64,000 bases of DNA, taken from positions 768,001 to 832,000 of the forward strand of contig CBDDDZ010000004.1 in assembly GCA_965226795.1 (NCBI GenBank). Direction: 5' to 3'. The stretch is from Candidatus Latescibacterota bacterium (GTDB lineage Bacteria; Latescibacterota; UBA2968; GCA-2709665). This document shows positions 29,892-58,398 of this stretch, in pieces. Every line of letters begins with the position of its first letter. Position 1 is the first letter of the stretch. The notes under the pieces are model-generated. The model ran no database searches, was not told where the DNA came from, and saw only the letters and a program-made list of their open reading frames with translations. Made by a program: the position numbers and the translations under genes.

Positions 29892-30872
29892 CTATGGTGC
29901 AGGTTCCAAATTTCGGATTCTCTCCGCGAAGACGCGACGCAAACTCTCGAGTTGCTCCAGAAGCCAAGTGTACTGCTCATTGCGGGCATCCGGATCGTAA
30001 AGGTCCACGTCTTTCCGAGAGTAGATTCTGCAGGCATTGGCATCCTCGGGATTGTACCAGTTCAACTCTCCGCCCATCTCACGTTCGATCTCGGACTGTT
30101 GGGACTGAAGAAAGTCGTGAAATCTGCCCGAGAGTTCTCCCCGGTTGATGCTTAGTTCTGCCCTTAGTTCCTGACCTTTCCACCCCCTGGTCTCGGAATG
30201 CGTCGAGGCTACCGCGGAGAGGAGGAAGCCCGTACGCCCCAAGCCCCCGGCGGCCATACTGGATTTCGCTTTGGGACTCGCAGTAAGTTTGACCTGCTGT
30301 CCATGCCGCGAAACGTGGTCATCGAATCCATTCCAGAATGCAAGCTGAACTCTCTGCGTCTCCGTCAAACTGGCGACAGTTGATCTCCCTCCCCTCGTCC
30401 AGTTGTTCGGTTTGGCCACGATATTGAATTTCGGCGCGAACGCGGACTCACCGATTCGCCAGACCTCAATTTCCAACGCAAAGAACTGAGTCCCCTCGGC
30501 CGAGTTCTCGTTCAGCCAGTCTACAGCCGCTCGGTGTTGGTCGGTAAAGGCTTTCGCGACCCAAACCACGGTTGACGCCTTGAAATGCGCCGCATACGTC
30601 AGAAGCTTCCCCAGGTGGTCGTGGTCCGTTTCCTCAAGCTGGTTTTCGATAACGACGTAACTATCGTCGTCGATATCTCTACACAATATGTCCGCGGAGT
30701 ATGGACCAACGGCTTCCTCGCGCGCCTGAAACTCTATCTGCATACCGAGTGTATCACCGAGATCGTCGAGGATTTTCTGCATCGCCAACCATGGCGTAAA
30801 ATCGTCAGCTTCGTTCCGCCATACTTCACGAAGGTCAACTCGCTCCAGTCTTCCCAGGTTTTCCGGTATCAT
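29892..30872 (-). CDS. DUF4268-domain protein with N-terminal NucS-like PD-(D/E)XK nuclease fold
   Basis: DFTPWL, ADILC, VIENQLEETDHDHLGKLLTYAA, FW..F C-terminal domain. Confidence 0.75.
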   Translation of the reverse strand: MIPENLGRLERVDLREVWRNEADDFTPWLAMQKILDDLGDTLGMQIEFQAREEAVGPYSADILCRDIDDDSYVVIENQLEETDHDHLGKLLTYAAHFKASTVVWVAKAFTDQHRAAVDWLNENSAEGTQFFALEIEVWRIGESAFAPKFNIVAKPNNWTRGGRSTVASLTETQRVQLAFWNGFDDHVSRHGQQVKLTASPKAKSSMAAGGLGRTGFLLSAVASTHSETRGWKGQELRAELSINRGELSGRFHDFLQSQQSEIEREMGGELNWYNPEDANACRIYSRKDVDLYDPDARNEQYTWLLEQLESLRRVFAERIRNLEPAP

Positions 30873-31020
30873 TAAAATAGCTCCTTCGTTCAGTGGTCAG
30901 ACGCCGAGATCAATAAAGATTCCGCATTGGGGCGAGATCGCAAACCAAAGGGGCCTGCAATCGCACCGACCAGGCGATCATCCAACCGATGCTCACAAAT
31001 CTCCAATTGCAGCCTAGACA

Positions 31021-31260
31021 TCAAAGGAGATCAGAGTATGACGCCTCTGTCCCGAATTTCTCCAAATACCAGCGTTCCGGTTCGGGACCGCATTCCTCCC
31101 CGTGGACTGCCGCCAACTTGCGAATCAAATCCAGAATAATCTCCCAGCCCGTGGGAATCTTCGCGGTTCGCGATACGCCTGATCCCACAAGAACGGCATA
31201 CACGCCAGGATTCGCCTGAATCGAGAACGCCAGAGAATGGACGGGGTCGATTGACCTCAT
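31021..31260 (-). pseudogene. Truncated duplicate of the SIR2 gene (first 79 aa)
   Basis: Near-identical to the N terminus of 34653-36404, then a stop. Confidence 0.85.
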
Positions 31261-32396
31261 TCTCCCTCTTCCTGCATATCCTCTTGCGGAATGACGGCAA
31301 CAACGCGCGGATTCAACAAGCGCCGCCGTTGACCAATGCGGTCAAGGTCGCCGGCCATAATGACCGGTGCCTTTTGTTGATGAGCTTCAATGGCTCTCTC
31401 GTAATCGGACTGAGTAAGGGCGGCTACAACTGACTGAATTTGCCCGTCAACGTATACTCGCAAAGTGATTGTTCCGTACGTCTCCTCATGGCGCCCCTTG
31501 AGCCTTTGTATATAGCCGAATAGTAGCACATCCGGTTTGGGTCCGCGATCACGGAACAGCCGCGCGGCCGCGCGGAGGATCGGGGCATCACCCTTGCCAA
31601 AATGAACGACCTCCCGCGGCGTATTCATCGGTCGGGTGCGGGCCCAGGTCAAACTGACGTCCAGTGCTTCGAAGGGCTCGATCAACTTCACGAGCGCTTC
31701 GCACAGATTGGCGCTTACACCGTTGTCCACGGCCTGCAAGAAAGCGTCGACTTTTCCTCCCATTGTTTGTTCCGTTGCATTACGGGCGGCTCGCAGCGCG
31801 GAAACCAGACGCCTTGTCATCTTGCGCTCAATCGGGTCTTCGTTATGCTCCGAATCCTGAATGAAGGACTGTTGTATGGGTGGCGACACGACAGGGGTCA
31901 GCAGGGTTACAACAAGGCTTTCTTGCTCGGATTGCCCCATTCGTAACTTGCGGACAAAGTTCATAGCCTCCTTGCCAGCGGCAGCGCTATAGACCGACCG
32001 CGGATCATGCAGCGAACAGGCGGCTGCCAGGACCATATCACGTGCGCTGCCTACAAGATTAATCCTATCATTTGCGGATACGGCGCCATCGCCGGCTTCG
32101 GCTGCACGCACGCGAATGACGTCACGGTCGGCCGTAACCAGGTCTCGGTAGAGTGAAAGTTCGTCGGTATCTGCCACGTCGGCGAAGATATCGATGAGTT
32201 GTGATACCACGTTAGCGTAATCGCCCAATTGTTGGGTGCGCGGCACGATGATCTCCGGCAATCCGTCCGATACATAAACGTCTGAAGAGTCGCCGTAGCT
32301 GTCCGTCCGTGTCCAGCCCGCTGCACGTGCATAGGCCGACAGGGCGGCAGGCGAAATCTCCCTCAAGGGCCCCTTGTCCCGAATGCTGACCCTCAT
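31257..32396 (-). CDS. Hypothetical protein, paralogue of 36401-37537
   Basis: Intact 379-aa ORF colinear with the 378-aa copy. Confidence 0.85.
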   Translation of the reverse strand: MRVSIRDKGPLREISPAALSAYARAAGWTRTDSYGDSSDVYVSDGLPEIIVPRTQQLGDYANVVSQLIDIFADVADTDELSLYRDLVTADRDVIRVRAAEAGDGAVSANDRINLVGSARDMVLAAACSLHDPRSVYSAAAGKEAMNFVRKLRMGQSEQESLVVTLLTPVVSPPIQQSFIQDSEHNEDPIERKMTRRLVSALRAARNATEQTMGGKVDAFLQAVDNGVSANLCEALVKLIEPFEALDVSLTWARTRPMNTPREVVHFGKGDAPILRAAARLFRDRGPKPDVLLFGYIQRLKGRHEETYGTITLRVYVDGQIQSVVAALTQSDYERAIEAHQQKAPVIMAGDLDRIGQRRRLLNPRVVAVIPQEDMQEEGE

Positions 32397-32476
32397 TGGA
32401 TTCTCCCTTGTTGTGCCTGTTCCATGAGCGAATGCAAATTCTCGACGTCAAAAACGTTTTTCGTCGGTATTCGGAT
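32393..32476 (-). pseudogene. 3' remnant of a DUF4365 gene duplicate
   Basis: Encodes IRIPTKNVFDVENLHSLMEQAQQGRIQ*, versus VRIPTKNVFDVENLHSLMEQSREGRIQ* in 37534-38034. Confidence 0.8.
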
Positions 32477-32690
32477 CTAATTCAACCAAACGCACCACAT
32501 CGCTTGCGTAGTGCAGACAGGCCCTGATGTCCTGAGTGCTCAAGCCAGGATAGTTCGCGAGGATATCGGCTTCGCTCCATCCCTGTGCCAACAGGTCGAT
32601 GATGAACTCTACCGCCTGCCGGGTTCCACGTACCACCGGCTTGCCGGCCAGCACGTCCGCATCAGCGACGATTCGATCTTGCCAATTCAT
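32448..32690 (-). CDS. DUF433 family antitoxin-like protein; 3' end runs into the DUF4365 remnant, no toxin partner
   Basis: GKPVVRGTR, ILANYPGLSTQDIRACLHYA. Confidence 0.75.
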   Translation of the reverse strand: MNWQDRIVADADVLAGKPVVRGTRQAVEFIIDLLAQGWSEADILANYPGLSTQDIRACLHYASDVVRLVELDPNTDEKRF

Positions 32691-32790
32691 GGTCCAATCC
32701 TCCTCTGTCTCTGGAGGCATCGAATCCGGCTGGGTCATCCTCCAAACGCCAGCCGTTGGGGGGTTTGCTTTAATCGCCTCGGGGATTCCG

Positions 32791-32876
32791 TGTACTTTCT
32801 ACATTGCCCCGCTTAAGTATCTCACAGAATCGACGGTCGTTGTAGGTCATCTATGGCCGACAAAGCACTTTGACGG
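32791..32876. repeat. Intergenic repeat shared with 45434-45590; contains ccgacaa-N6-ttgacgg
   Basis: tgtactttct..ccgctt..cagaatcga..gttgt shared; 32853-32876 matches the reverse complement of 45501-45524 at 22/24. Confidence 0.65.
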
Positions 32877-33254
32877 ACATTTTTCCTTAAAAGTGGCCGC
32901 CAAATCAACTTTCTTCTCTCTACAGCGTTCAACAGCTCGCGAATGGAAACGCATTTCAACGTTCATCTCGGCGTTCAGACGGCAAAGTTGAACAGTTTCG
33001 TCGGCGTATTCGTGGATCAGTACATTGCGGAACGCGATGATGCGTTTAAACTCGCTGATTCGCGCAATCACGGCTTCGTCAACTCTTGCGAGTTTAGTCA
33101 TAGCCTCGCCAATGATCTCAAACTCACGCTCTACTGCCGCTCGCAGCATCGCGTCGCTCTGATAGTCCGCAAACGTCTTATCACGGACGAATTCATTCAG
33201 TGAGCCCGCAGCCTTCCGGATGTCGTACAGATATTTGAGTGCTTCAAGCCGCAT
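32847..33254 (-). CDS. HepT/DUF86 HEPN RNase toxin, apparently 3'-truncated after the RX4HXY motif
   Basis: AVEREFEIIGEA, FRNVLIHEY, then a non-family tail. Confidence 0.75.
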   Translation of the reverse strand: MRLEALKYLYDIRKAAGSLNEFVRDKTFADYQSDAMLRAAVEREFEIIGEAMTKLARVDEAVIARISEFKRIIAFRNVLIHEYADETVQLCRLNAEMNVEMRFHSRAVERCREKKVDLAATFKEKCPSKCFVGHR

Positions 33255-33552
33255 AGAGCGGTGTCCTGGTCTCGTCGACGCTTTGTCGGAAGAAAGGGTT
33301 TTTGATGGCCGAGTCGACAACGAGATCCACACGGTGTCCAAAGAGACGTTCGAGGGCTTCCAGCAACCCGAAGAAGGCGTCGGCATACTCTCCGGAGGGC
33401 AACGTTTGGAATTCAACCAGGAAGTCGAGGTCGCTTTCGCCCCTACGGTCGTCGTCCGTGGCAGCCGAGCCAAATAAGTCAAGCCGAAGGACACGGTAAC
33501 GGACGCAGAGCCGCTGCAGTTCGACGACCCGCTCTTTGACAATAGGTATCAT
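33244..33552 (-). CDS. MntA-type minimal nucleotidyltransferase antitoxin
   Basis: LFGSA...SDLDFLVEF, RVDLV; overlaps the HEPN gene. Confidence 0.85.
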   Translation of the reverse strand: MIPIVKERVVELQRLCVRYRVLRLDLFGSAATDDDRRGESDLDFLVEFQTLPSGEYADAFFGLLEALERLFGHRVDLVVDSAIKNPFFRQSVDETRTPLYAA

Positions 33553-33716
33553 CGGACGTTGTCCTGTTTAATCGGACCGCCAGCAGCGACAGTCCATTGG
33601 CCTTCCTCGGCTCGCGATTGGATCCGCTATTCCCCTTACATCTCCGTGATGAATCTGCGCGCTCGGGCTGCTTCATCGGCGGAGCAAATGGCATATCGCC
33701 CGGGAAATCCGGACGC

Positions 33717-34481
33717 TCAAGCCGCCAGTTCTACTCTCGCATCTTCCCTCTGGCTCCACACTACCGGTCTGACGTCGTAGCTCCGTAGCGCGGCCATCAC
33801 GGTCTGATCTACCTTTCGTTCCGAATCATTCAGCAATGCGTACACACGCGATCCCGGCGTGCGGACCTCCTTTGTGTCGATCCACGCGAGTACAACATTC
33901 TGAGCGGTTGAACGACTCGGACGGTTGACTGTTTGTATGAGCCGCTCCGACTGCTTCCGGGACTTCGGAATCACAAAATCAAAGAGATGATCATACCCTG
34001 TCTTTCCTGTAAACTTCACCTTTGGCGTATGGCGAATATCATTTAGATCAAGCCAGGCCTCGACATCTTCATAGAAGATGTTCGCCACCGTGGGTGCCGC
34101 CATGTAAAACATATCGTTGACGGCGAGCATCGCCTGCAAGAGACTGTGTTTGCGCACCGCAAAGTTGTCGGCTGATGCAAGGACCTGTAACTCACGTCCG
34201 TCCTTTTGGACGCCGAAACCATTGAGTGTCATTTGCAGCAGATCTTGACGTTTGGGACTCTCGAGATTGCAACCACTTTGGGAAAGATCCTCAATGGTAT
34301 ATCCGTCATCCGTTAACACGAATCCTCCGTTCGAATCTTTCGCATAGATCTGTAAGTAGTCGTTGTGTCTATCCAGACACGGCGTGGTGATCTCAACCCA
34401 CTGGTCGATCTGGTGCAGGACTGTCTTGTCCTTGAGCCAGGCATAATAATCATCGATGAGAATCTGAATTTCTCTAATCAT
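33717..34481 (-). CDS. DUF1828/DUF1829-domain protein
   Basis: [40 protein letters not shown]. Confidence 0.75.
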
Positions 34482-34558
34482 GTGAAAAGCTCCCGTACGA
34501 CATTTGGCGGTCGCGTGACGTTGCAGAACTGCAGGAATTCTTCGAAGATTACTGATGA
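34478..34558 (-). pseudogene. C-terminal remnant of the usual upstream partner of DUF1828/1829 (DUF6978-like)
   Basis: [26 protein letters not shown] ending in an ATGA overlap, with no start. Confidence 0.4.
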
Positions 34559-34652
34559 GTGACGGCGCCACACGTTTCGAACAGGGGATAATCCAGATAA
34601 CACCCCAATGCGATGTCTGCACGATGGGGATTGGCGGATGCGCGTACGGATC

Positions 34653-36404
34653 CTACCGATTCCGTATTTTGTACAAAAACTCCTCCAAATCAGTCACGCC
34701 CTGCTTACACTCCTCGGCTGTCGCGCCAAAGATTCCGCTTGTTACGTACGGCGATTCATCTTGCATTGTTGCCAGCGATTCCTCAATCTCGTGAAAAACC
34801 CGGATTCGTTCTCGTCGGTATGCAAAAGCTCCAGGAGGCGCCCAGTATTCCTCCTCCAGAGGTTCTTTGTGAGCGCAGCCAAGCGCAATGAGTATTTCAA
34901 GTTTGTCGAATACTCGTGTGTACCGTTTGTCGTCGGGGATGATACGCTCTGTGTGCGTTCGCAATACGTCGTGAATCCAGTCGTTCAGCGATGGGTAGCG
35001 TTTTTCCATTCCTTCCAATTCCTGCATTACCTGTCCGCCCTCATCAAACAACAAAGACGGTGGAAGTATCCTTACGGCGGCAAGGTCCTCTTCGTGTCGC
35101 CTGTGAATCGTCGTCCCGAAGAGATTTCCAAGAAAGCGAAGGCGACCCGCCTCAACCGCGCCAAGTCCCAGTGCATAGAGCAGAAGTGTTGCCGGATATT
35201 TCTTTAAATCAATCCAAAATACAATTCCCCCGGTCACGTCAATAGAACCAAGACGCTGCAATGACTGTTGCCAAACTTGATCGTGTTCTTCCTCCGCCCA
35301 ACGGCCACCGATCGTCGCCATCGCCATTAACGTCGCACATGCGGCCTCATATTTGCGCACGCGTTTGGTAACTGACTCGCTGTCTAGATATGTGCTACCT
35401 TGCACGTCGAAACCCTCGCCCGACGTTATCTCTACAACCTGCTCAACGGTCTGTTGGATCAGATTTGACAACTGAATCCGGTATCGAGGATCCGGAAGGT
35501 AGCGTTCCAAACTCGCTGCGGCCGCTTCGATGGATAACGGATGTACCTGCGAATACTCCTCGATTGACTCTACATGCTGTTGGACGGACGTGAAGAACGA
35601 ATCCGCGTCATCAATGGGAATCAATTCGGCTCGGCGATGTTCAATCAACCTTCGGGCCTTGTCGCCGGGTTCGCCTCTTGCCGCCCAATAGGTAGTAAAC
35701 CGGTGTGACGAAGCCCGGAACATTGCCTTGCACAACGCTCCGTCCCACTCGGCGGACCAGCCACAGACGATAAGGCCGAACTCGTCGAAAATACGATCGA
35801 GGAGTTTATCGAATTCTTGCGGATACTCATCGAGTTCGTCTGGGGTATTCCTTATGCGGGTATCGAGATAATCGCCATTTACCTTGAATACGCAACACTT
35901 GGTGTGGATCAAGGGACGAGCGCCCTGAACTTGATCCGGGGAACTGAGGATTGTCGGTACGACCCCTGCGTCGTGGAGAGCGGTTTCCACCAGACGGTCG
36001 AAATTCGTGGTGATGATGACCTTGATGAATCCCTTCACGGCCAATCCCGCGATGGCCCGGTGTGCCGCAGTAGGCGCTTTCGCACCTTCCTCACGCTCCT
36101 CGTCAATTGGCTCAAAATACGCCCGTAGCAACCTTTGTCTTTCTGCCTGCGTTTTGGCAATGTCGTTGAGCAGTTCGGAGTACGACGCCTCCTTCCCGAA
36201 TTTCTCCAAATACCAGCGTTCCGGTTCGGAACCGCATTCCTCCCCGTGGACTGCCGCCAACTTGCGAATCAAATCCAGCGTTATCTCCCAACCCGTCGGA
36301 ATCTTCGCCGCCCGGGATACGCCTGATCCCAAAAGAACGGCATACACACCATGGTTGGCTTGAATCGAAAATGCCAGCGAATGGACGGGATCGATTGACC
36401 TCAT
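34653..36404 (-). CDS. SIR2-family (SIR2_2) protein with a long C-terminal region
   Basis: LLGSGVS, IITTNFD, KVNGDY, GWSAEWD; ATGA overlap with the upstream gene. Confidence 0.85.
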   Translation of the reverse strand: MRSIDPVHSLAFSIQANHGVYAVLLGSGVSRAAKIPTGWEITLDLIRKLAAVHGEECGSEPERWYLEKFGKEASYSELLNDIAKTQAERQRLLRAYFEPIDEEREEGAKAPTAAHRAIAGLAVKGFIKVIITTNFDRLVETALHDAGVVPTILSSPDQVQGARPLIHTKCCVFKVNGDYLDTRIRNTPDELDEYPQEFDKLLDRIFDEFGLIVCGWSAEWDGALCKAMFRASSHRFTTYWAARGEPGDKARRLIEHRRAELIPIDDADSFFTSVQQHVESIEEYSQVHPLSIEAAAASLERYLPDPRYRIQLSNLIQQTVEQVVEITSGEGFDVQGSTYLDSESVTKRVRKYEAACATLMAMATIGGRWAEEEHDQVWQQSLQRLGSIDVTGGIVFWIDLKKYPATLLLYALGLGAVEAGRLRFLGNLFGTTIHRRHEEDLAAVRILPPSLLFDEGGQVMQELEGMEKRYPSLNDWIHDVLRTHTERIIPDDKRYTRVFDKLEILIALGCAHKEPLEEEYWAPPGAFAYRRERIRVFHEIEESLATMQDESPYVTSGIFGATAEECKQGVTDLEEFLYKIRNR

Positions 36405-37537
36405 TCTCCCTCTTCCTGCATATCGTCTTGCGGAATGGCGGCAACAACGCGAGCATTCAACAAGTGCCAACGCTGACCAGTTCGCTCAAGGTCGCCTTCT
36501 GCGACGACTAGCGCCTTCTGTTCATGTGCCTCAATCGCACGGCTGTAATCGGATTGACTAAGAACAGATACAACTGACTGCATTCTGTCGTCAATGTATG
36601 TGCGCAATGTGATCGTTCCATCCGTTTCCTCCTCATCCCTCTTTAGCCTTTGAACAAAACCGTATAGTTGCACATCCGGTTGCGGCCAAAGATCACGGAA
36701 CAAGCGTGCGGCCTCACGCAGGATCGGTGCGTCACCCTTGCCAAAGTGAACGACCTCCCGAGCCGTATTCATCGGATGGGTGCGGGCCCAAGTCAAACTG
36801 ACGTCTAGTGCGGCGAATGGTTCGATCAGCCTTACGAGGGCTTCGCAAAGATTGGCGCTTACACCGTTGTCCACGGCCTTGAAGAATGAACCGGGATCAC
36901 CTCCTACCAAGCTTTCTGTAGCGTGTTGGGTAGCTCGCAGAGCAGTAGCCAGACGCCTCGTTATCTTCCGCTCGATTGGGTCGTTGTGTTCCAGGTCCGG
37001 AATAATGGTCTGTTGCATGGGCGGAGAGACAACAGGGGTCAGCAGGGTAACAACAAAGCTGCCCTGCTCGGTCTGCCCCATGCGAATATTGCGCACAAAA
37101 TCCGTAGCCTGTTTGTTGGCGCCGGCGCGGTAAACCGGTCTGGGATCATGCAGCGAACATGCTGCTGACAAAATCATATCGTGTGCGCCGCACACAAGGT
37201 CGATCCCATCGCTTACTGATACTGCGCCATCGTCGCCTTCGGCAGCCCGTACCCGAATGACATCTCGATCGGCCGTAATCAGGTCGCGGTAGAGAGAAAG
37301 TTCGTCGGTACCGGCAGCTTCTGCGAAGATATCGATGAGTTGTGATACGACGTTGGCATAATCACCCAAACGTTGGGTCCGAGGCAAAATGATTTCCGGC
37401 AACCCGTCCGACACATAGACGTCCGAAGAGTCGCCGTAGCTTTCCGTCCGTGTCCAGCCCGTTGCGCGGGCATAGGCTGATAGGGCCGCAGGCGAAATCT
37501 CGCTCAAGGGCCCCTTGTCCCGAATGCTGACCCTCAT
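36401..37537 (-). CDS. Hypothetical protein between DUF4365 and SIR2
   Basis: 378-aa ORF with ATGA overlaps on both sides; duplicated in the island. Confidence 0.85.
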   Translation of the reverse strand: MRVSIRDKGPLSEISPAALSAYARATGWTRTESYGDSSDVYVSDGLPEIILPRTQRLGDYANVVSQLIDIFAEAAGTDELSLYRDLITADRDVIRVRAAEGDDGAVSVSDGIDLVCGAHDMILSAACSLHDPRPVYRAGANKQATDFVRNIRMGQTEQGSFVVTLLTPVVSPPMQQTIIPDLEHNDPIERKITRRLATALRATQHATESLVGGDPGSFFKAVDNGVSANLCEALVRLIEPFAALDVSLTWARTHPMNTAREVVHFGKGDAPILREAARLFRDLWPQPDVQLYGFVQRLKRDEEETDGTITLRTYIDDRMQSVVSVLSQSDYSRAIEAHEQKALVVAEGDLERTGQRWHLLNARVVAAIPQDDMQEEGE

Positions 37538-38034
37538 TGGATTCTCCCTTCTCTTGACTGTTCCATGAGCGAATGCAGATTCTCGACGTCAAATACGTTT
37601 TTCGTAGGTATTCGTACGGTGATGATCGATAGATTTTCCGTTTCTTCGTAACCTTTCAGATTCAACCAATATGCCCGGCGCCGCAGTACAAGTTCATCTT
37701 CGGTGATCGTCACCCACTGGTCCTTTTTGCTCGGCAAATCGAGTACCACGAGCAACCTCGGAGTCTGTGTTTCAATGCGTAGCAGATCGTAATTTCTGCG
37801 CTTCAGTGGAAAACGAAAGTACCCATCCTTCGGCACGCCCAGGTTTACCGTCGCCTTCAACTGTAATTCGAGCGCAGCTCGCATCCCGCCACCGGCTTGA
37901 ATCCGAAGATCAACTCCATCACGGTCGAGATCATAGCTGGCTGTTACATAACCTGCCCGTGCCGCCACTGCGCGTGAATAAACAATAGACAGCGCTTCCT
38001 TCTGATCGGTATCTGTCATCAGCGCATCGGTCAT
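37534..38034 (-). CDS. DUF4365 family PD-(D/E)XK nuclease-like protein
   Basis: DRDGVDLRI...LELQLKAT; PRLLVVL; GGAGG RBS. Confidence 0.75.
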   Translation of the reverse strand: MTDALMTDTDQKEALSIVYSRAVAARAGYVTASYDLDRDGVDLRIQAGGGMRAALELQLKATVNLGVPKDGYFRFPLKRRNYDLLRIETQTPRLLVVLDLPSKKDQWVTITEDELVLRRRAYWLNLKGYEETENLSIITVRIPTKNVFDVENLHSLMEQSREGRIQ

Positions 38035-38047
38035 GCAATGGCCTCCA

Positions 38048-39208
38048 TTAGATGAAACCAATACCGACCAACTGAGCGATATTTTCACCTTCGAACCGCT
38101 TCACTTCACCATCAAATACCTTCACGTGTGGCAGCCGAAACAAGGCATCAGGAAATACCGTATGGGTATTCTTGGGATTGAGATAGAGACTTGCGGAAGC
38201 ATTGTAAATATTCCACATGTCGACCTTCTGAATACTCAAGAATGCATCCATTTGGCTACCACGACCGCGGGACCAGACACCATTCGGCTCACGTCCTGGC
38301 CTCGGCGTTGCGTCAAGGTTGTCTTTAGAATAGAAGAGCTGTTCATTCCCGAACAGCACTTCTAAATCGTGCTGCCGGGCGTTGTAGAACATGTCACGGG
38401 TATTCACTGCCAACACGAACGGTGCATCAAGGTTGTGATATTTTCGCTGTTTTTCTCTTAACGCGTTCCATACGGGAGTCGCACAATCAGTGAATGCACC
38501 AAAGTGATGCCCCATGACGAGTTGCCGGTTCGAATCATTCCTTTGTTTTTCAGGTGAAATCGGCCAAAGCCAGCCCTTAAGTGTCCAGTTTCCACACTCG
38601 ATTCTTTGAGAAGGGGCTGCGTTACTCCCATGCTTATCGATCTCACACTGGACGCCATTGGGGTCGTGAGACTCAAGCAATTCCTTGAAAGGACGTACCA
38701 CATTCTCACGACTCAACGTCCGCGACAACGTTCCCTCCATATCCACGGTAATTCCGAATTTCGAATGTGTCAACGAATTGAGCTTATCTATAACGTCTTC
38801 CTCATTTCGGTTACGAGTAAAAGGCCCCGATCTTTGTCCTGACACTGTAGCTTCGAGGTAGAATTGTAGATTGTCACGAGATACAAGAAAATCCGGCCGA
38901 GCCCTTGCGCCTACAATCGCCGGATGTACCTCCAATGAAAATTCCAAGCGAGTCAGAAATTCGTGCAGGAAAAGTTCGAAAAACGCTCCTTCGTGATTCT
39001 GGTCATCGTCTGACCGAAGTCTCTCTCGCAGATCTCGGCGATGTGGAAGAGGGTAATTTTCGAACCACGACTCAAGGGTATTCCGGATGTACGTTGCTCC
39101 GGGCCAATCATAATGGTTAATGTGTCGAAAGATCGATTCAGACGGGGAATCACTCTTCAACTCATTCCGTTTAATGTCATCAAAAAGCACTGTCGGTTCG
39201 GTTGTCAT
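38048..39208 (-). CDS. Hypothetical protein with a PD..ExT restriction-endonuclease-like motif
   Basis: FFELFLHEFL...RPDFLV...YLEAT...KQRKY..LDAPFVLAV. Confidence 0.55.
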   Translation of the reverse strand: MTTEPTVLFDDIKRNELKSDSPSESIFRHINHYDWPGATYIRNTLESWFENYPLPHRRDLRERLRSDDDQNHEGAFFELFLHEFLTRLEFSLEVHPAIVGARARPDFLVSRDNLQFYLEATVSGQRSGPFTRNRNEEDVIDKLNSLTHSKFGITVDMEGTLSRTLSRENVVRPFKELLESHDPNGVQCEIDKHGSNAAPSQRIECGNWTLKGWLWPISPEKQRNDSNRQLVMGHHFGAFTDCATPVWNALREKQRKYHNLDAPFVLAVNTRDMFYNARQHDLEVLFGNEQLFYSKDNLDATPRPGREPNGVWSRGRGSQMDAFLSIQKVDMWNIYNASASLYLNPKNTHTVFPDALFRLPHVKVFDGEVKRFEGENIAQLVGIGFI

Positions 39209-39398
39209 CGCATGGCTTTTCTGGACTTGACTGCAGCAAAATATGCGGAGATTGCGACGGCAGCATATTGCTTAGGTTCGGAAAAACGGCATCCGTACCC
39301 AATCGTTTTTCTCCGCACCGTAGCCGTTGCTATTTGCGTGCTTCACGGGTTCAGTCCCGATTTTAGTGCATACGTCGGCGAACGTATCCCCTGTCCGA

Positions 39399-39434
39399 TC
39401 AAAGAATCCTTGTGCAATTATAAAATATCCAGTG
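39399..39434. other. Degenerate internal copy of the tandem dif-like site
   Basis: tcaaa-gaatcc-ttgtg-caat-tataa-aatatc-cagtg, same 20-bp register as 29520. Confidence 0.35.
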
Positions 39435-39569
39435 TGCGGTATTTTCGAATGACCGCCCGAAGAATGTGCGATCAACAATCTATGATGTTCGATTTATTAT
39501 ACTCTGCATTCTAAAGCCGGTCAAGGCACGGCATTTCATTTCCGCCAGGTAATAAGTTTCACCCCAATG

Positions 39570-42380
39570 CTAGCCCTGGCCCTGCACTATTTTTTTCTTC
39601 CGCCGCCGCCGTTTCGGTTTCGCCTTAGCAGCAAGCGGCGCAACCATTTTTTCGTATAGCCCGAGCAGATGTTCCACGCGCTCGCGCTCGGAGGCGAAGC
39701 CGCTACGTCGGTACAGCCTATCGACGGCGCGGTCCAGGACCTGGTGTGCTTTGCGGAGGTCGGGTGGCATGAGGTCTGGGTCGTACAGGTCAGCAAGTGT
39801 CGCTCCAAGATGATTCGCGCGAGTGGATAGAACGGCCTCGGTATGAGGAGCGAGACGTTCGAGGCGTTCTGACGGAACCGGGGGCAACGGATAGGTGTTG
39901 TACACGAGACCAATTGAGTAGCGAAGATCGCTCTTTAGTCTCCCGCCGATATAGCGTATCCAGCTTACGTGCATCGCCGAAGTTAACAGGGCAAATAGAG
40001 ATTTGGTCGCCGCTTCTACTACCTCTACTGCATCGCTTGGAATGGTAGGTGGTTCCATCCATGCGATCGGGACGTATTCCCGTCGTTCTGAACTAACCCT
40101 CGGTACGACCAAGAATGGTGTGGTGGGAATGACATTTACGTGGTAGAGCTTTGGCGTCAATGCGAGTGACTGGGTTGGCTTACTCCTGCTCGCCAATCTA
40201 TAGGCTCGGACGGCGGCGATCCGCTCTCGAACTTTCGGCAGGGCCTTTAGCACCTGCGGCGGCGCGTCGGCTAGATGCAATATCCAACGTTCTCCACCCT
40301 GCAGGAACTCGCGGCTACCCACGAAGGGTCGCAGATAGGGCTCGGCACCCGGTTCTTCGGCCAGAAAAGTGTCGCGTTCGTCCACCTTGAATATGTAATG
40401 GCCGCCATCAATGGGCTTTGAGCCAATAATCAGTCTTGGAAGCCCATTCAAAGGAAGGCTCGACTCCCTTACCACGATTCGTGGATCGCTCAATCCTCTT
40501 GCGTCGAAGAGGTAGGGTGAAAGCGCCGTGTGTTGGCTGTGCTGCGGATCGCTCTTAGGCGTATCGTAGGATAACAACCGTTTCAGTCTCGGTGCATCAT
40601 CCCGTTTGACCAAGCCGATAATCACCACGTGAACGTGCGCCATGCCGCGTGCGTCCGATCCCCACGCGAAGGTGCGGTGCGCGAAGGCGATTTCCAGTTT
40701 GTGGCGTTCGAAAAGAATCGGCCAGAGTTGCGCGACCTGTTCGCCCTGCGTGATGGAATTGGTGGCCACAAAACCGATTCGCGCCGGGCTCTGTTGCACG
40801 TATTCGCCGGCTTTGATGAACCACGCGGTGACGTAGTCAAGCGTGCCGCCGCTCTTTCCCAGCGCGGCGATGTTGCGCACTTGTTCACGCTGCTCGGACG
40901 ATTGAAACTTCGCACCGACAAACGGCGGATTGCCGAGCACGTAGGAACATTCCTCCGGCGGCAGTAATTCGCTCCAATCAAACTCGAGCGCGTCGGCCTG
41001 CCGAATATGCGGCGACTTCTCCAACGGAATACGCGCATAAGTCTGGCCGAATTCCAGGCTCAGACGGTTATTCATGATATGGTCCATCATCCATAGCGCG
41101 ACCTCGGCGATATGCGCCGGAAACTCCCCCAACTCAATTCCATAAAACTGGTCTACGTCGACCACCGAAAGCAACTCTGCGAAGGCGTCGACCTGGCCCC
41201 TTGGGCGAATCTCCTTGAGAACTTCGATTTCCAATTCGCGCAATTCCCTGTAGGCGATGATCAGGAAATTCCCGCAGCCGCAGGCTGGATCGAAGAAAGA
41301 CAGGTCACCGAGGCGCTGCTGAAAGGAGATCAGTTCGGGAATGCGACGCGTGTCGCGGCGCGCCTTCAGGCGTTGGAACTCCTCGCGCAGATCGTCGAGG
41401 AATAGCGGCTCGATTACCTTGAGGATGTTCTGCTCGGTGGTGTAATAAGCGCCCTGTCGGCGGCGTTCGTCCTTCTCCATTACGGACTGGAATAGCGAGC
41501 CGAAAATGGCTGGAGAGATAGCGGACCAATTGAAATGACAAGCATCAATGAGCCTCTGCCGCATCCGGGAGTCAAACGACGGAATGGGGAGCATGGAACG
41601 GAACAGGTCGCCGTTGACATAGGGGAATAGGGCGAGGTCTTCGTCGAGGGTTGTGGCGCGCCGGTCTTCGGGCGTATTGAGCACCTGGAACAATTGCGCG
41701 AGCCACCCACCCAGGTCTGAGCCGTCTTCCCGCGTCCGGCTTTCCAATAGGTCGAGGAAGATGTCACGCGGTTCGAAGATGCCGGTGTCGTCGGCAAAGA
41801 AACAGAAGACGATCCGGACGAGGAATTGTTCCAGGTCGTGGCCGATATAGCCGGAATCCGCCAGCGCGTCGTGGAGAAGGCCCACCCGCTCGGCCGCCTT
41901 AATGTTTACCGGGTCCTGATCCTTGAATGTCCGCTTCTCTACCCCAAGGATGAGTCCGAACTTTTCGACGTGTTCAGGCAGGTCAGCGAGGTTGAAAGCG
42001 ACTTTCCCGTTCTCGCCTTCGTCGAGGTCGTATAGCTCAAACGTTGCGAAATCGCTTAGCAGCATGTAGCGCGGCAGATCGTCGTCCTTGAGACCAGGAA
42101 AATAGGAGAAGGCCTGGTTCTTGGCCGCGATAAGATCCCGGCCGGCGCTCTTTTGCTCGACGATCAGGACACCCTTCCAGAACAGGTCGATAAAGCCACG
42201 CTTCTCCCCGAGGAGCTTAACGGGTTCCTCAAAAGAGGCCACCCGGCGCACGGGCACGCCGAAAACATCGAAAAAATCCCGGTAGAATAGCTGGGTCTGG
42301 CCCTTCTCGTAGCCTTCGTCCTTCCAGTCCTGTACGAACTTGGCGGCGCGGACTCGAATTTCATTCCACGATAGTCGCAT
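39570..42380 (-). CDS. MmeI/YeeA-like fused restriction endonuclease-m6A methyltransferase (Type IIG/IIL)
   Basis: IDLFWKG..EQKS nuclease, YVNGDLF, FDPACGCGNF, GNPPF, LADLYDP. Confidence 0.88.
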   Translation of the reverse strand: MRLSWNEIRVRAAKFVQDWKDEGYEKGQTQLFYRDFFDVFGVPVRRVASFEEPVKLLGEKRGFIDLFWKGVLIVEQKSAGRDLIAAKNQAFSYFPGLKDDDLPRYMLLSDFATFELYDLDEGENGKVAFNLADLPEHVEKFGLILGVEKRTFKDQDPVNIKAAERVGLLHDALADSGYIGHDLEQFLVRIVFCFFADDTGIFEPRDIFLDLLESRTREDGSDLGGWLAQLFQVLNTPEDRRATTLDEDLALFPYVNGDLFRSMLPIPSFDSRMRQRLIDACHFNWSAISPAIFGSLFQSVMEKDERRRQGAYYTTEQNILKVIEPLFLDDLREEFQRLKARRDTRRIPELISFQQRLGDLSFFDPACGCGNFLIIAYRELRELEIEVLKEIRPRGQVDAFAELLSVVDVDQFYGIELGEFPAHIAEVALWMMDHIMNNRLSLEFGQTYARIPLEKSPHIRQADALEFDWSELLPPEECSYVLGNPPFVGAKFQSSEQREQVRNIAALGKSGGTLDYVTAWFIKAGEYVQQSPARIGFVATNSITQGEQVAQLWPILFERHKLEIAFAHRTFAWGSDARGMAHVHVVIIGLVKRDDAPRLKRLLSYDTPKSDPQHSQHTALSPYLFDARGLSDPRIVVRESSLPLNGLPRLIIGSKPIDGGHYIFKVDERDTFLAEEPGAEPYLRPFVGSREFLQGGERWILHLADAPPQVLKALPKVRERIAAVRAYRLASRSKPTQSLALTPKLYHVNVIPTTPFLVVPRVSSERREYVPIAWMEPPTIPSDAVEVVEAATKSLFALLTSAMHVSWIRYIGGRLKSDLRYSIGLVYNTYPLPPVPSERLERLAPHTEAVLSTRANHLGATLADLYDPDLMPPDLRKAHQVLDRAVDRLYRRSGFASERERVEHLLGLYEKMVAPLAAKAKPKRRRRKKKIVQGQG

Positions 42381-42423
42381 ATAGTGCCTTCAATTTTATC
42401 GGTTGGTGGCGATTTTTGGCATC

Positions 42424-43197
42424 TCAGTTACAGTCTTCATTTACATCAGTATCGGTCAATAAACATCGTAGATAACTGAGTGTCGAAATGGCTTTGAGAC
42501 TGTTTGTTTGTGTCCCGTAGTCGACTGACTCGCCGTGTATCACCTGATGCCGATTTAGTCCGTCGAAAGATTCGCTACGCTCACGTTGGCTTATCCAAAG
42601 AGGCGCCGAGATTGTGAGAGGCGTCCACATCGCCTCCATGAATTCTTCGGATGCCACTTTTCTTATATAATCACAAGCGACAGTTTCTCGATCCTTTTTT
42701 CTGAACAAGATCTTCGTCGATGCCTCCCAAAAGATCCCATCACATTGTGCCAGCAAAACAGGTATCGAAAGATTGTATTTGCCTTCTCGATGGGCTTCGA
42801 ACGCGTCACGAAAAAGGTGGCTTCTCTTCGGATAGGACTGAGCGAGTTCCGACTCTATAGCATCTACTCGCGCCCGGAGAAAGTCGATTGCGATTGTTTC
42901 GGCTTGAATGGGGTCTTCGTTGGCCGCCTGCATGACTGGCAGCAGGTTGTCCAGGGGCATCCCCAAATCGGGGAACCATCCGATTTCTGCAAGCTTAGTC
43001 AAAGACTCTCGATCTATTTCGGGTTGTTTTTCCAACCACTCCAAGATTAGCACGGCATGAGGTGCAATCGCCTGCAATGTCTGATTGATCGTTTCTATGT
43101 CTTTCTCTAGCCGCGGAAACCGAGTGAGGAGCAAATCCGCGAAATGCTCAACTATAGTGTGATTCCGCTTATGGTGACTATCAGTCTGGCGCGCCAT
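42424..43197 (-). CDS. HEPN-like hypothetical protein
   Basis: LNRHQVIHG (RX4H) in a helical C-terminal domain. Confidence 0.5.
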   Translation of the reverse strand: MARQTDSHHKRNHTIVEHFADLLLTRFPRLEKDIETINQTLQAIAPHAVLILEWLEKQPEIDRESLTKLAEIGWFPDLGMPLDNLLPVMQAANEDPIQAETIAIDFLRARVDAIESELAQSYPKRSHLFRDAFEAHREGKYNLSIPVLLAQCDGIFWEASTKILFRKKDRETVACDYIRKVASEEFMEAMWTPLTISAPLWISQRERSESFDGLNRHQVIHGESVDYGTQTNSLKAISTLSYLRCLLTDTDVNEDCN

Positions 43198-43474
43198 TGT
43201 CCGCGTTCCTCGGCGAAGGTTTCCTGTCAATTCAACCAGGACTCCCGCTAACGAGCCGCACTATTGATATCTTACGAACCTTAATCTGCAGATCACAGTT
43301 CGTCGGCAATTTCTTAAATCTACTTGATAAATGATCAGAGTCATTTGGAATATTCCTGTCCGATGTGGGGCTGAGATCAGAGGAACCGAATGGATGTAGA
43401 TCTCGATTCCTTCTCCACAGACTTTCGCGCCAGTGCCCCTCATCCCCGAGCCATCTAATATCGGAATCGTTATC

Positions 43475-44095
43475 CTATCTAACCCCTTTTCCTGAAAGCT
43501 TGAAGAGCGTCTCGATAAATCGTCTTGCATGGGGCGACGCATTCGCGACTTTCTCAGGGTCTATTTTAGCCAGGATCTCAAAACTGTGACGCCCTTTGTC
43601 ATAGCGGCCTTTCGAGGTACGACGCGTAGCCTGGCGAATTCTGTTGAGTACATCATTCTTGGCAACCTGCTCTATCTGTTGATTCGACGGGAGCGCGGTT
43701 TCCTGAAAGCCCTGGCCATAGTATTCATCAAGGGCCGAACGGTCCGCCAGAAACGATGATTCCATTGCTTGCACCATAAGGTGGCATTGTTCATCCGTCG
43801 TGCCGTCCGGGCGGTCCCAGTTATCAAGGTCCTTGACGTGTTCCCACGGCTCAGCTTTCCTGACCGGTGCCTCAGCGTCAACCAATAGCAGCGCAGTTTC
43901 ATTTTTTTTGGCTGCATCGCGATGTCTCGTCTTAAAGTCCTCGTACGCGTTCCTGCGACTGCCCGAGGCTACAATTTCGGGCATTGTTCCTTTCAACCCC
44001 GATTTCTCAATGAATTTCCGAAAACCCCTGCGGCACGCCCTTTTGAGCGCCCTGCTACTGCCTCCTCCTTCGACATAAAGCTTGATCTTCACCAC
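43475..44095 (-). CDS. DUF4276 family (TOPRIM-like) protein
   Basis: LYVEGGG, LLVDAE, MESSFLAD, YDKGRHS. Confidence 0.75.
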   Translation of the reverse strand: MVKIKLYVEGGGSSRALKRACRRGFRKFIEKSGLKGTMPEIVASGSRRNAYEDFKTRHRDAAKKNETALLLVDAEAPVRKAEPWEHVKDLDNWDRPDGTTDEQCHLMVQAMESSFLADRSALDEYYGQGFQETALPSNQQIEQVAKNDVLNRIRQATRRTSKGRYDKGRHSFEILAKIDPEKVANASPHARRFIETLFKLSGKGVR

Positions 44096-45282
44096 CGATT
44101 CCCTCCAATCTCCCCTTTGACCCAGAGCTCGCCAAGTCGGTATTTTTCAAGCCACGGCTTGAGTTCGTCGGCGTCAAGACGGGCAAGTTGCGTCGCACCG
44201 TCCGATTTCTCGCAAACAATCACGGCCTCCGGAGTATCTGTGAGCGCGTCAATGAGAATGTCCGAATGCGTCGTGACAAAGATCTGGCTGCGGGTTGACG
44301 CCTCGACCAGAAGCTCGGCCACCTCCGGGATTACGTCCGGGTGCAGGCCTATCTCCGGCTCCTCAATGCAAACAACCGGCGGCGGATCGGGATTGCAGAG
44401 CACGGCCAGAAGGCACAGATAACGAAGGGTCCCGTCAGAAAGCCGCGTGGCCGGCACGGGATGTTGCAAGCCTTCCTCGTGAAAAAAAATCTGGACCGTG
44501 TTACTGTGTAGTGAGCTGCGCATATCCTCAATTGACGGGTGAAAGGCTCTCAAACGGTCCATAATCTGGCGTTTTGTAGGCGGCTGATTCAGCAAGCTGC
44601 TGAGAACAAGACCAATATTCGAAGCATCCTCCAGCAGGATGTCCTGCCGCATGTCGGCTTGTTGCGGTAGGCGGGGCGGCGTGGAGCGTCCGAAGTTCCA
44701 ATCACGATAAAAGTGCATACGTTCGAAAGCGTCAGCTATATAGGTTAATTCTGGATAGGTATTGGGATCGCGACGTTGCGAAAGAATCGACTGATCATGA
44801 CGTAACTCTTCCTGCGCGAGGCGTTGATAGGATCGAGTCTGGTCTTTCGACAATACGCTGAGCATCGCCCGTCCCGCCCGGTATCGGTAGAACACAAATG
44901 GCGCCTCATTTTTTTTTATTGGCTTCTCATTCTCGATTGCTTCTTCCAAGAGTTCGAACCGTGCCCCAATCTCGGTGAAGGACAGCCGGTACCTGAGCGG
45001 CTGTTTCGTCGGATATTCGATCGTTACGTCCACAATTGCCGTGCCCAGTCGAGGGGCTCCCTTCCAAAGCCATTCGTGAACGCCTCCCCCTTCCCGAATC
45101 GGTGCCTGTAGATCCCTGGTAGGCGCTGCGAGGAGCGATAACACTTCAATCAAGTTTGATTTTCCGGAAGCGTTAGGGCCAATGAAGACGTTTAACGGCT
45201 CCAGATGAAACGCTTCTTCCCAGGATCCGTAGGATAATATGTTGTCCAGACGGATCGTTCGAATCAACCTTTTGCCATCCAT
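44089..45282 (-). CDS. ABC/AAA_21-type ATPase
   Basis: Walker A GPNASGKS, LSDGT signature, Walker B IEEPE, TTHS. Confidence 0.88.
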   Translation of the reverse strand: MDGKRLIRTIRLDNILSYGSWEEAFHLEPLNVFIGPNASGKSNLIEVLSLLAAPTRDLQAPIREGGGVHEWLWKGAPRLGTAIVDVTIEYPTKQPLRYRLSFTEIGARFELLEEAIENEKPIKKNEAPFVFYRYRAGRAMLSVLSKDQTRSYQRLAQEELRHDQSILSQRRDPNTYPELTYIADAFERMHFYRDWNFGRSTPPRLPQQADMRQDILLEDASNIGLVLSSLLNQPPTKRQIMDRLRAFHPSIEDMRSSLHSNTVQIFFHEEGLQHPVPATRLSDGTLRYLCLLAVLCNPDPPPVVCIEEPEIGLHPDVIPEVAELLVEASTRSQIFVTTHSDILIDALTDTPEAVIVCEKSDGATQLARLDADELKPWLEKYRLGELWVKGEIGGNRW

Positions 45283-45433
45283 AGAGCACTCCCCGCAGTT
45301 TCCCTTTCGGTGCCAATTACAAATGGAATCTTCGTCTTTCATCCGGATTATCACTGAATCGAAAAAATTAACTACGTTTCAATGCCAATCCCTGATTCTT
45401 GCACTGATTTATTCGATTAGCCGGAGGGTCTTG

Positions 45434-57164: not shown

Positions 57165-57707
57165 ATGGGCCGGCTATCGGTTTTGGGCTTGGCGGTCCTT
57201 ATTGGTTTAGTGATATCCTGTGGTGACGACAAACCCACGGAGCCCGTCCACGAACTGGTTGGATCCTGGACTTACCAGAGATCCGAATTCAGTGTCACGG
57301 CAGCGACAACCCTGCAGAATTACCTGATGGGCCAGGGCCTGGACCAGACGGCAGCGCAAACCATGGTCGCTGACTTCATGAATGAGATGAGTAGCGGCTT
57401 CCGGGAAACGGGCCTGGAGATCGTGCGATTCAACCAGGACCTAACCTACGAAGATAATTCCGGCAATTCGGGAGTCTGGTCCGTACAGGGCGACGTCCTC
57501 ACGTTGGCCGGCGAAGATGGGTTCACCATACAATGCCAGTACTCTGTGGACGGCGAAGACCTGACGCTCATCCTGAACAAGGAGCGATACCTGAACATTG
57601 TCAGGCAGACGGAGGGTACGGTTGCGACCGACCCGGAGATCGTGGTGCTTCTGGATATTTTGTTTGGCGACGGGGACTCACTACGACTCTTCTATAAGGC
57701 CAGTTAG
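57165..57707 (+). CDS. Lipoprotein, lipocalin-like, copy 1
   Basis: Lipobox LVISC, ELVGSW, repeated W/Y-SV-GD-LTL strands; AGGAGG RBS. Confidence 0.7.
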   Translation: MGRLSVLGLAVLIGLVISCGDDKPTEPVHELVGSWTYQRSEFSVTAATTLQNYLMGQGLDQTAAQTMVADFMNEMSSGFRETGLEIVRFNQDLTYEDNSGNSGVWSVQGDVLTLAGEDGFTIQCQYSVDGEDLTLILNKERYLNIVRQTEGTVATDPEIVVLLDILFGDGDSLRLFYKAS

Positions 57708-57781
57708 CGGGCGGGAATTTTCGTGCACGTGACAGGTGCGGACGCGAAGCTGAGGTTGCGACACAGAAGGAGGGCGTCCTG

Positions 57782-58324: not shown

Positions 58325-58398
58325 CGGGCGGAAATTTTCGTGCACCTGGCAAGTGCGGGCGCGAAACTGAGGTTGCGACACAGACGGAGGGCGTCCTG

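What the first reader, a model, noticed from the sequence alone, without database searches (positions are those of the whole stretch)
34653..38034. Candidate undescribed three-gene anti-phage system: DUF4365 nuclease - 378-aa unknown - SIR2
Seen: three genes joined by two ATGA stop/start overlaps (37534-37537, 36401-36404), inside a defence island and duplicated as a unit. Established: SIR2 domains are NAD-depleting effectors in Thoeris, DSR, SIR2-HerA and short-pAgo systems, and DUF4365 has a PD-(D/E)XK fold. None of the known partners (TIR, HerA, Ago, STAND) is visible here. Inference: the middle protein, with a possible HicA-like N terminus (AYARATGW) and OB-like C terminus, is a sensor or antitoxin linking two effectors.
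Basis: partly seen in the sequence, partly recalled or inferred. Interest (0 to 1): 0.82.

Follow-up and report, generated by a model that had tools for sequence, protein, structure and literature searches.

The report
Two stacked candidate anti-phage cassettes
The three genes are real but are two already catalogued, untested anti-phage candidates (a nuclease-plus-partner pair and a separate sirtuin gene) that sit together only in one bacterial family and likely work independently; the odd point is that this sirtuin carries asparagine where defence sirtuins use a catalytic histidine.

Summary
Genes and both ATGA overlaps are confirmed, but this is not an undescribed trio. Genes 1-2 match PADLOC PDC-M02A/B (E 5e-56, 6e-124); the SIR2 gene matches PDC-S65 (1e-213). 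Both are catalogued, untested candidates. DUF4365 precedes the middle gene in 68 of 80 related loci; SIR2 follows it in 3 of 80, and 0 of 80 SIR2 loci carry either partner. The full three-gene order occurs only in this genome's own family (5 of 22 genomes), where the parts are lost separately and SIR2 does not co-diverge with the pair. Both modules independently fill the hsdS-hsdR slot of type I restriction operons. The 'duplicate' is a remnant: whole middle gene, 27 codons of DUF4365, 79 of SIR2. Likely mechanism: the middle protein restrains and triggers the nuclease; the sirtuin senses phage alone. New detail: this sirtuin has Asn at the catalytic His, a state that switches at least 17 times in the family and is under purifying selection here. 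The scan reported the same stacking before on other DNA (e1-4835588).

The parts
37534..38034 (-). PDC-M02A: DUF4365 PD-(D/E)XK-type predicted nuclease, 166 aa; E13, D37, D42, Q58 and K60 invariant in 40 aligned copies
   Evidence: Pfam PF14280 E 1.7e-23; PADLOC PDLC04278 E 5.4e-56; alignment A4
36401..37537 (-). PDC-M02B, 378 aa: HicA-like fold (about residues 7-89), central alpha/beta domain without a listed structural match (about 90-283), OB fold (about 284-374)
   Evidence: PADLOC PDLC04298 E 6.1e-124; model pLDDT 95; VIA Z 8.1 to 1whz, 6.9 to 5yrz_D, 7-8.4 to OB folds
34653..36404 (-). PDC-S65: SIR2 domain (about 1-285) plus predicted helical C-terminal domain, 583 aa; N134 kept, Asn176 at the catalytic His position
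   Evidence: PADLOC PDLC05061 E 1.1e-213
37534..37537 (-). ATGA stop/start overlap, M02A to M02B
   Evidence: sequence
36401..36404 (-). ATGA stop/start overlap, M02B to SIR2
   Evidence: sequence; this SIR2 family overlaps an unrelated upstream gene in 15 of 71 eligible loci, 12 of them hsdS
31025..32473 (-). Remnant second allele: last 27 codons of M02A, intact M02B (31257-32396, 379 aa), first 79 codons of SIR2
   Evidence: blastn 81.4% and tblastn; SIR2 breakpoint shared with G008
29892..45354 (-). Surrounding co-directional defence island: HEC-01A/B, 268-aa unknown, MmeI-type IIG RM, 386-aa protein with weak PD-T7-5 similarity, PDC-M24B, nucleotidyltransferase, DUF433, PDC-S11
   Evidence: GC 0.50-0.57 against about 0.6 in the flanks

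Best explanation
This is two catalogued candidate defence modules, PDC-M02 (nuclease plus partner) and PDC-S65 (sirtuin), joined head to tail in one family's defence island and likely acting independently. In PDC-M02 the DUF4365 protein is predicted to be a non-specific DNase that the 378-aa partner would hold inactive, most likely through its HicA-like N-terminal domain. The partner's OB fold would sense a phage nucleic-acid cue such as single-stranded DNA and release or switch on the nuclease, causing abortive infection (inferred, about 50% given independence). PDC-S65 would work like a small DSR-type protein: its variable helical C-terminal part would recognise a phage protein and activate the SIR2 domain to consume NAD+ (inferred; about 50% for this Asn-bearing copy). 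Shown by calls: family identities, linkage counts, predicted folds, the Asn substitution and its purifying selection. Inferred: binding, trigger and activity.
For: PADLOC matches. M02A upstream of M02B in 68 of 80 GTDB loci; SIR2 directly downstream in 3 of 80, and 78 of 80 had at least 2 kb downstream. 0 of 80 metagenomic SIR2 loci hold M02A or M02B by tblastn or HMM; 58 of 80 had at least 1.2 kb upstream. In 168 genomes of the phylum, outside family f1, 13 have M02B and 9 have S65; one has both, about 222 kb apart. In 9 plasmid M02B loci fetched (9 of 15 hits), M02A is upstream in 8 (one partial at the record end) and SIR2 in 0. Both modules sit between hsdM/S and hsdR on their own: 28 of 80 and 18 of 80 loci. 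In five intact trios pairwise identities of M02A and M02B track each other (rho 0.83), those of M02B and SIR2 do not (rho -0.05) (10 non-independent pairs). Parts are lost separately inside the family. Toxin-antidote asymmetry: all 18 of 168 genomes with M02A also have M02B, and 3 others keep M02B without it. M02B dN/dS is 0.26-0.35 among partnerless copies against 0.13-0.20 among partnered ones. Intact M02A sits beside an M02B cut to its first 92 residues and fused to TPRs in G040, and beside forms lacking the OB domain in G022 and G034. QxK is the active-site motif of the DUF4365 nuclease in short-Ago systems (PMC10810196, passages). The SIR2 C-terminal part varies more (40-82% identity) than the enzyme part (77-81%).
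Against: Within family f1 the M02B-to-SIR2 junction is stable. M02B runs straight into a full SIR2 in 6 genomes (this one, G004, G005, G010, G013, G015) with M02B 58-87% identical, and into SIR2 stubs in G008, G012 and this genome's second copy. Seven of the 8 M02B/SIR2 protein pairs that share a contig length carry the Asn form, and one carries His (a crude co-location marker). All 7 family-f1 SIR2 copies have Asn, which in other defence sirtuins is the position of a required His (DSR2 H171, ThsA H152, KomC H146; PMC11263360 and PMC13454610, passages), so simple NAD+ depletion by this copy is not assured. Partnerless M02B is still under purifying selection (dN/dS below 0.4), which a pure antidote does not predict. 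No activity, binding or trigger was measured. The OB and HicA Z-scores (6.9-8.4) are middling.
Confidence: 0.78

Rival explanations
1. A family-specific three-part system has arisen: the Asn-form sirtuin is functionally coupled to M02B, as an NAD-binding partner or as a SirTM-like ADP-ribosyltransferase that modifies M02B or a phage protein.
For: M02B is followed by SIR2 or a SIR2 stub in all 8 family-f1 genomes that have M02B (one extra partial copy in G012 is cut at a contig end). All 7 f1 SIR2 copies carry Asn with SIR2-domain dN/dS 0.09-0.14. G004 keeps intact M02B-SIR2 without M02A. Precedent: SirTM replaces the His by Gln and ADP-ribosylates an operon-encoded protein (PMC4518038, passages).
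Against: No co-divergence of M02B and SIR2 (rho -0.05 to -0.38). Asn also occurs in 10 of 80 metagenomic SIR2 loci, none with M02B, and in G001 without M02B. M02B outlives SIR2 truncation in G008, G012 and copy 2. SIR2 overlaps unrelated upstream genes in 15 of 71 loci. One inherited island explains the order.
Confidence: 0.1
2. M02B, not M02A, is the active or toxic core (a HicA-like RNase or an unrecognised enzyme in its central domain), and the DUF4365 protein is its regulator or an accessory nuclease.
For: HicA-like fold. His at position 37 in 59 of 80 close loci. Conserved polar residues D92, R95, E157, S160, R190, N229 in the central domain. M02B stays intact in 79 of 80 loci while M02A is broken or missing in 32 (loci were chosen by M02B). 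Partnerless M02B is still under selection.
Against: The His is found in only 31 of 130 diverse members and is Ser in this copy. A toxic core should not survive loss of its regulator, yet M02B does so often. M02A keeps an invariant nuclease motif.
Confidence: 0.08
3. The locus is decaying cargo: the sirtuin is catalytically dead and the genes no longer defend.
For: Asn at the catalytic His; frequent truncations in relatives; the second copy is a remnant.
Against: All three frames are intact. dN/dS is 0.09-0.14 for the SIR2 domain and 0.13-0.20 for M02B. The His position takes almost only His or Asn across 201 rows while N134, D136, G177 and Y179 are invariant.
Confidence: 0.04

Closest known systems
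PADLOC phage defence candidate PDC-M02 (M02A + M02B); Payne et al., bioRxiv 10.1101/2024.01.29.577857
   Same: Both genes hit the M02A and M02B models over their full length, in the order A then B with an overlap. Relatives are often embedded in type I RM operons, the criterion by which PDCs were defined.
   Different: Nothing structural. Here the pair follows a type IIG (MmeI-like) gene and runs into a SIR2 gene. The paper calls its 145 PDCs untested; the name did not occur in the main-text passages I saw, and its supplements were closed.
PADLOC phage defence candidate PDC-S65 (single-gene SIR2 protein)
   Same: Full-length match, E 1.1e-213; usually without M02 genes and often embedded in type I RM operons.
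   Different: This copy belongs to the Asn-for-His form (52 of 201 rows, with some redundancy) and is coupled to M02B in one family.
DSR2 (defence-associated sirtuin)
   Same: N-terminal SIR2 domain plus helical C-terminal region; best Foldseek match (8wkt, E 4.8e-7).
   Different: 583 aa against about 1000; no DSR model hit at E 0.01; TM-score about 0.3; His replaced by Asn.
SPARDA / TmuRE-Ago (DUF4365-APAZ plus short Argonaute)
   Same: Same DUF4365 nuclease domain with QxK motif, activated there by a nucleic-acid-sensing partner; this is the model for how M02 may work.
   Different: No APAZ or Argonaute here; the partner is a HicA-like/OB-fold protein.
SirTM (class M sirtuins)
   Same: Natural amide residue in place of the catalytic His.
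   Different: Gln, not Asn; partners there are GcvH-L and a macrodomain, not seen next to this gene; no SirTM entry among the sequence matches to solved structures.

Membership tests
PDC-M02 | M02A model match | tested here: met
   25 M02A models hit, best E 5.4e-56, residues 6-164
PDC-M02 | M02B model match | tested here: met
   best E 6.1e-124, residues 1-371 of a 380-position model
PDC-M02 | two genes adjacent on one strand | tested here: met
   ATGA overlap at 37534-37537; PADLOC's own rule file was not run
PDC-M02 | anti-phage activity | not testable with these tools
   candidates described as untested
PDC-S65 | full-length S65 model match | tested here: met
   E 1.1e-213, residues 3-579 against model 15-588 of 592
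Defence SIR2 NADases (DSR2, ThsA, KomC) | catalytic Asn of the TTN motif | tested here: met
   N134, invariant in 201 of 201 rows; changed in the KomC mutant chain 9v12
Defence SIR2 NADases (DSR2, ThsA, KomC) | catalytic His of the HG motif | tested here: not met
   FKVNGDY, Asn176; the column aligns with the KomC His changed in 9v12
DSR2 | about 1000-aa SIR2 plus helical sensor protein matching DSR models | tested here: not met
   583 aa; no DSR model at E 0.01; partial fold likeness only
Thoeris | TIR partner and SLOG or macro domain on the SIR2 protein | tested here: not met
   no such Pfam family in the neighbours scanned; ThsA models hit only about 70 residues, E 2e-6
SPARSA / SPARDA short-pAgo systems | APAZ domain and adjacent Argonaute | tested here: not met
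   Aga/pAgo models match only within the first 290 residues; no Piwi family in the neighbours scanned
SIR2-HerA | adjacent HerA ATPase | tested here: not met
   flanking genes are M02B and DUF1828/1829
HicA toxin | alpha-beta-beta-beta-alpha fold | tested here: met
   model secondary structure; Z 8.1, rmsd 2.8 over 70 residues to 1whz; Z 6.9, rmsd 2.2 over 57 to 5yrz_D; naming these two chains HicA-type is recalled
HicA toxin | catalytic His in the first beta hairpin | tested here: inconclusive
   position 37 is Ser here, His in 59 of 80 close loci and 31 of 130 diverse members; equating it with the HicA His rests on a recalled motif
SirTM | Gln for His, with GcvH-L and macrodomain in the operon | tested here: not met
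   Asn, and neither partner among the neighbours scanned

The most novel reading that the evidence does not exclude
The His/Asn switch in PDC-S65 sirtuins marks a change of chemistry. The Asn form is a SirTM-like ADP-ribosyltransferase or NAD-binding switch rather than an NADase, and in this family it has been wired to the M02 nuclease-sensor pair, giving a three-part defence system gated by a sirtuin modification.
Probability: 0.07. Interest if true: 0.75.

Novelty: new member of a known kind. Interest (0 to 1): 0.3.

Why it matters
As a new three-gene system it does not stand. Two things remain useful. First, PDC-M02 is widespread (4304 representatives at 50% clustering hit the M02B profile at E 0.001) and has no mechanism in the searches run. 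The HicA-like/central/OB model and the nuclease-needs-partner asymmetry give a direct test. Second, a defence sirtuin family whose catalytic His switches with Asn at least 17 times while the rest of the site is fixed questions the rule that SIR2 defence effectors need that His, and a two-allele NAD+ assay would settle it.

Tried and rejected
Complex prediction of M02A with M02B never ran because the queue was full, so binding is untested and no M02B-SIR2 prediction was attempted. M02B has no Pfam, NCBIfam or solved-structure sequence match and no Foldseek PDB match at E 0.001. Its central domain was not folded alone, so its fold is not shown to be new. ESM Atlas gave only unnamed clusters; a weak DUF6575 lead (0.77; Foldseek E 1.7e-7, TM 0.35) was not followed. 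No M02B match in the phage collection by tblastn, though a Leptospira phage LE1 protein matches the model over its length and PHROG models hit M02A and M02B. RNA-library contigs cover the trio only in patches at low depth: no evidence on expression or co-transcription. The promoter/terminator scan found no more sites than shuffles. Three M02A-M02B fusion proteins (P0306, P0344, P0347) are single-member clusters on short contigs and were set aside as possible deletions or errors. Fusions of the M02B N-terminal domain to TPR, HATPase or DUF4268 domains may be deletion chimeras; the nuclease neighbour was checked only for G040. M02B and SIR2 profiles show no similarity. The SIR2 model is middling (pLDDT 70), so its C-terminal fold matches were not relied on. 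A single His-to-Asn decay event in this genome was rejected. Literature: 0 papers for 'PDC-M02' and 'PDC-S65'; spelling variants gave no relevant paper among the 20 of 23 listed; DUF4365 searches listed only short-Ago papers and Divona.
Full report
1. Observation. The minus strand holds three intact ORFs: 38034-37534 (166 aa), 37537-36401 (378 aa) and 36404-34653 (583 aa), joined by ATGA overlaps at the stated places. Pfam gives DUF4365 for the first, nothing for the second and SIR2_2 for the third. They lie in a co-directional, lower-GC island with an MmeI-type IIG enzyme, HEC-01, PDC-M24B and PDC-S11. The claimed duplication is a 1.45-kb segment at 31025-32473, 81.4% identical, with 27 codons of the nuclease, the whole middle gene and 79 codons of SIR2. 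It shares its SIR2 breakpoint with relative G008 and is closer to G008 (dS 0.18) than to the intact copy here (dS 0.70). It is therefore a decayed sister allele. The remnant also recurs inside a 13.3-kb, 99.1% identical inverted repeat at the contig end.

2. Identity. PADLOC-DB lists all three genes: PDC-M02A (E 5.4e-56), PDC-M02B (6.1e-124) and the single-gene PDC-S65 (1.1e-213). Payne et al. (bioRxiv 10.1101/2024.01.29.577857; seven passages seen, supplements closed) defined 145 such candidates from genes embedded in BREX, DISARM and type I RM systems and call them untested. Searches for the two names found 0 papers. Main-text look-ups in four later papers found no mention of the terms asked: DUF4365 in PMC13069673 and 10.1101/2025.09.30.679545, M02 or S65 in 10.1101/2024.09.26.614923 and PMC12988326 (their supplements were not searched). 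Either module could still have been named in a paper outside the library or in supplements.

3. Linkage. Among the best 80 of 519 M02B loci from GTDB genomes (scan covered 55 of 64 parts), M02A lies upstream in 68 and SIR2 directly downstream in 3; SIR2 sequence is anywhere in the locus in 5. The three are Latescibacterota genomes and the same sequences as three of the family-f1 cases below, so they are not independent. Among the best 80 of 553 SIR2 loci from metagenomes (25 of 64 parts), none holds M02A or M02B; 58 had at least 1.2 kb upstream. In 168 genomes of the window's phylum, 21 have M02B, 18 M02A and 16 S65. Outside family f1 only G139 has both modules, about 222 kb apart. In 9 of 15 plasmid M02B hits fetched, spanning several phyla, M02A is upstream in 8 and SIR2 in none. 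Each module fills the slot between hsdM/S and hsdR on its own: 28 of 80 and 18 of 80 loci. The SIR2 gene overlaps an unrelated upstream gene in 15 of 71 eligible loci, 12 of them hsdS, so an ATGA overlap does not mark a dedicated partner.

4. Against this reading. Inside family f1 (22 genomes with this one) the order is stable. The full trio is in 5 genomes (this one, G005, G010, G013, G015), M02B-SIR2 without nuclease in G004, M02B plus a SIR2 stub in G008 and G012, and SIR2 alone in G001. Shared island neighbours such as MmeI and DUF1828 in most of these point to one inherited, eroding island. In the five trios, M02A and M02B identities track each other (rho 0.83) but M02B and SIR2 do not (-0.05; -0.38 with G004) (few, non-independent pairs).

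5. The middle protein. The model from 130 sequences has pLDDT 95. Residues 7-89 match 1whz (Z 8.1, rmsd 2.8, 70 residues) and 5yrz_D (Z 6.9); that these are HicA-type chains is recalled. Residues 284-374 match many OB folds of SSB, RPA and PriB (Z 7-8.4). These scores are middling and show fold, not function. The central domain has no listed match and was not tested alone. The His that would make a HicA RNase (recalled motif) is Ser37 here and His in only 31 of 130 diverse members. All 18 genomes with M02A also have M02B, while M02B persists without M02A in G004, G008, G012 and copy 2. Those four form one clade (100/100) with dN/dS 0.26-0.35 against 0.13-0.20. Intact M02A also sits beside M02B forms lacking the OB domain (G022, G034) or reduced to the first 92 residues fused to TPRs (G040). 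I infer that the N-terminal domain restrains the nuclease and the OB fold senses. M02A keeps E13, D37, D42, Q58 and K60 in 40 of 40 aligned intact copies. The QxK pair is the mutated active site of the DUF4365 nuclease that degrades DNA non-specifically in TmuRE-Ago (PMC10810196, passages). Binding was not tested.

6. The sirtuin. It has an N-terminal SIR2 domain closest in sequence to the SPARSA and KomC sirtuins and a predicted helical C-terminal part, which varies more among relatives. It reads FKVNGDY where relatives read FKVHGDY. That column and N134 are the two positions changed in the KomC mutant chain 9v12. His mutants lose most or all activity in DSR2 and KomC (PMC11263360, PMC13454610; passages). 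Asn is in 36 of the 120 closest proteins, 7 of 7 family-f1 copies and 10 of 80 metagenomic loci without M02 genes. On a 201-row approximate tree (some rows redundant) the position changes at least 17 times (shuffled labels: mean 46) and takes His 147, Asn 53, Ser 1, while N134, D136, G177 and Y179 are nearly or fully invariant. The Asn-form domain has dN/dS 0.09-0.14. So Asn is a tolerated natural state, neither decay nor specific to the trio. Either this family hydrolyses NAD+ without the His, or the Asn form does something else; SirTM, with Gln there, is an ADP-ribosyltransferase (PMC4518038, passages).

7. Verdict. Two catalogued, untested modules are stacked in a lineage-specific island (confidence 0.78). 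Rivals: a family-specific coupled trio (0.10), M02B as the active core (0.08), decayed cargo (0.04). My reading was on record before I saw earlier scan notes; e1-4835588 reached the same view on another genome and is not counted as evidence. New member of a known kind; interest 0.3, carried by the testable M02 model and the His/Asn switch.

Noticed in passing
window 35877-35879 (-), SIR2 codon 176; proteins P0121-P0240, loci L081-L170: Catalytic His of PDC-S65 sirtuins switches with Asn at least 17 times while the rest of the site is fixed.
   Followed up: partly
L183:43-1779 (-) (G040); P0391-P0406, P0410, P0411: The M02B N-terminal domain occurs fused to TPR arrays, HATPase_c_4 or DUF4268; in G040 directly behind an intact DUF4365 gene.
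   Followed up: partly
G000:C4:918528-931853 versus 789255-802549: 13.3-kb inverted repeat, 99.1% identical, at the contig end; holds the remnant copy but not the intact trio. Real duplication or strain mixture not resolved.
   Followed up: no
window 38048-39208 (-): 386-aa gene just upstream with no Pfam family and weak PD-T7-5/PD-T7-1 similarity (E 1.6e-7); also upstream of the trio in G005 and partly in G013.
   Followed up: no
window 42424-43230 (-): 268-aa protein without Pfam or PADLOC match, upstream of the MmeI-type gene here and in G013; PHROG 28904 match (E 1.9e-25).
   Followed up: no
window 32847-33552 (-): Nucleotidyltransferase gene followed by a frame with an RxxxxH motif, probably an MNT-HEPN toxin-antitoxin pair (label recalled, second gene not scanned), then DUF433.
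   Followed up: no
window 33717-34481 (-): PDC-M24B (DUF1828/DUF1829); the short gene that precedes it in the contig-end copy is cut off here by the SIR2 end.
   Followed up: no
L018:3375-7134: In a Gammaproteobacteria genome a SIR2 gene lies upstream of an M02A fragment and M02B, the reverse order.
   Followed up: no
window 57165-58936: Tandem repeat of about 617 bp units, 88-89% identical.
   Followed up: no
window 60606-63903 (-): Leucine-rich-repeat and cadherin/fibronectin-III frames, perhaps parts of one large surface protein.
   Followed up: no
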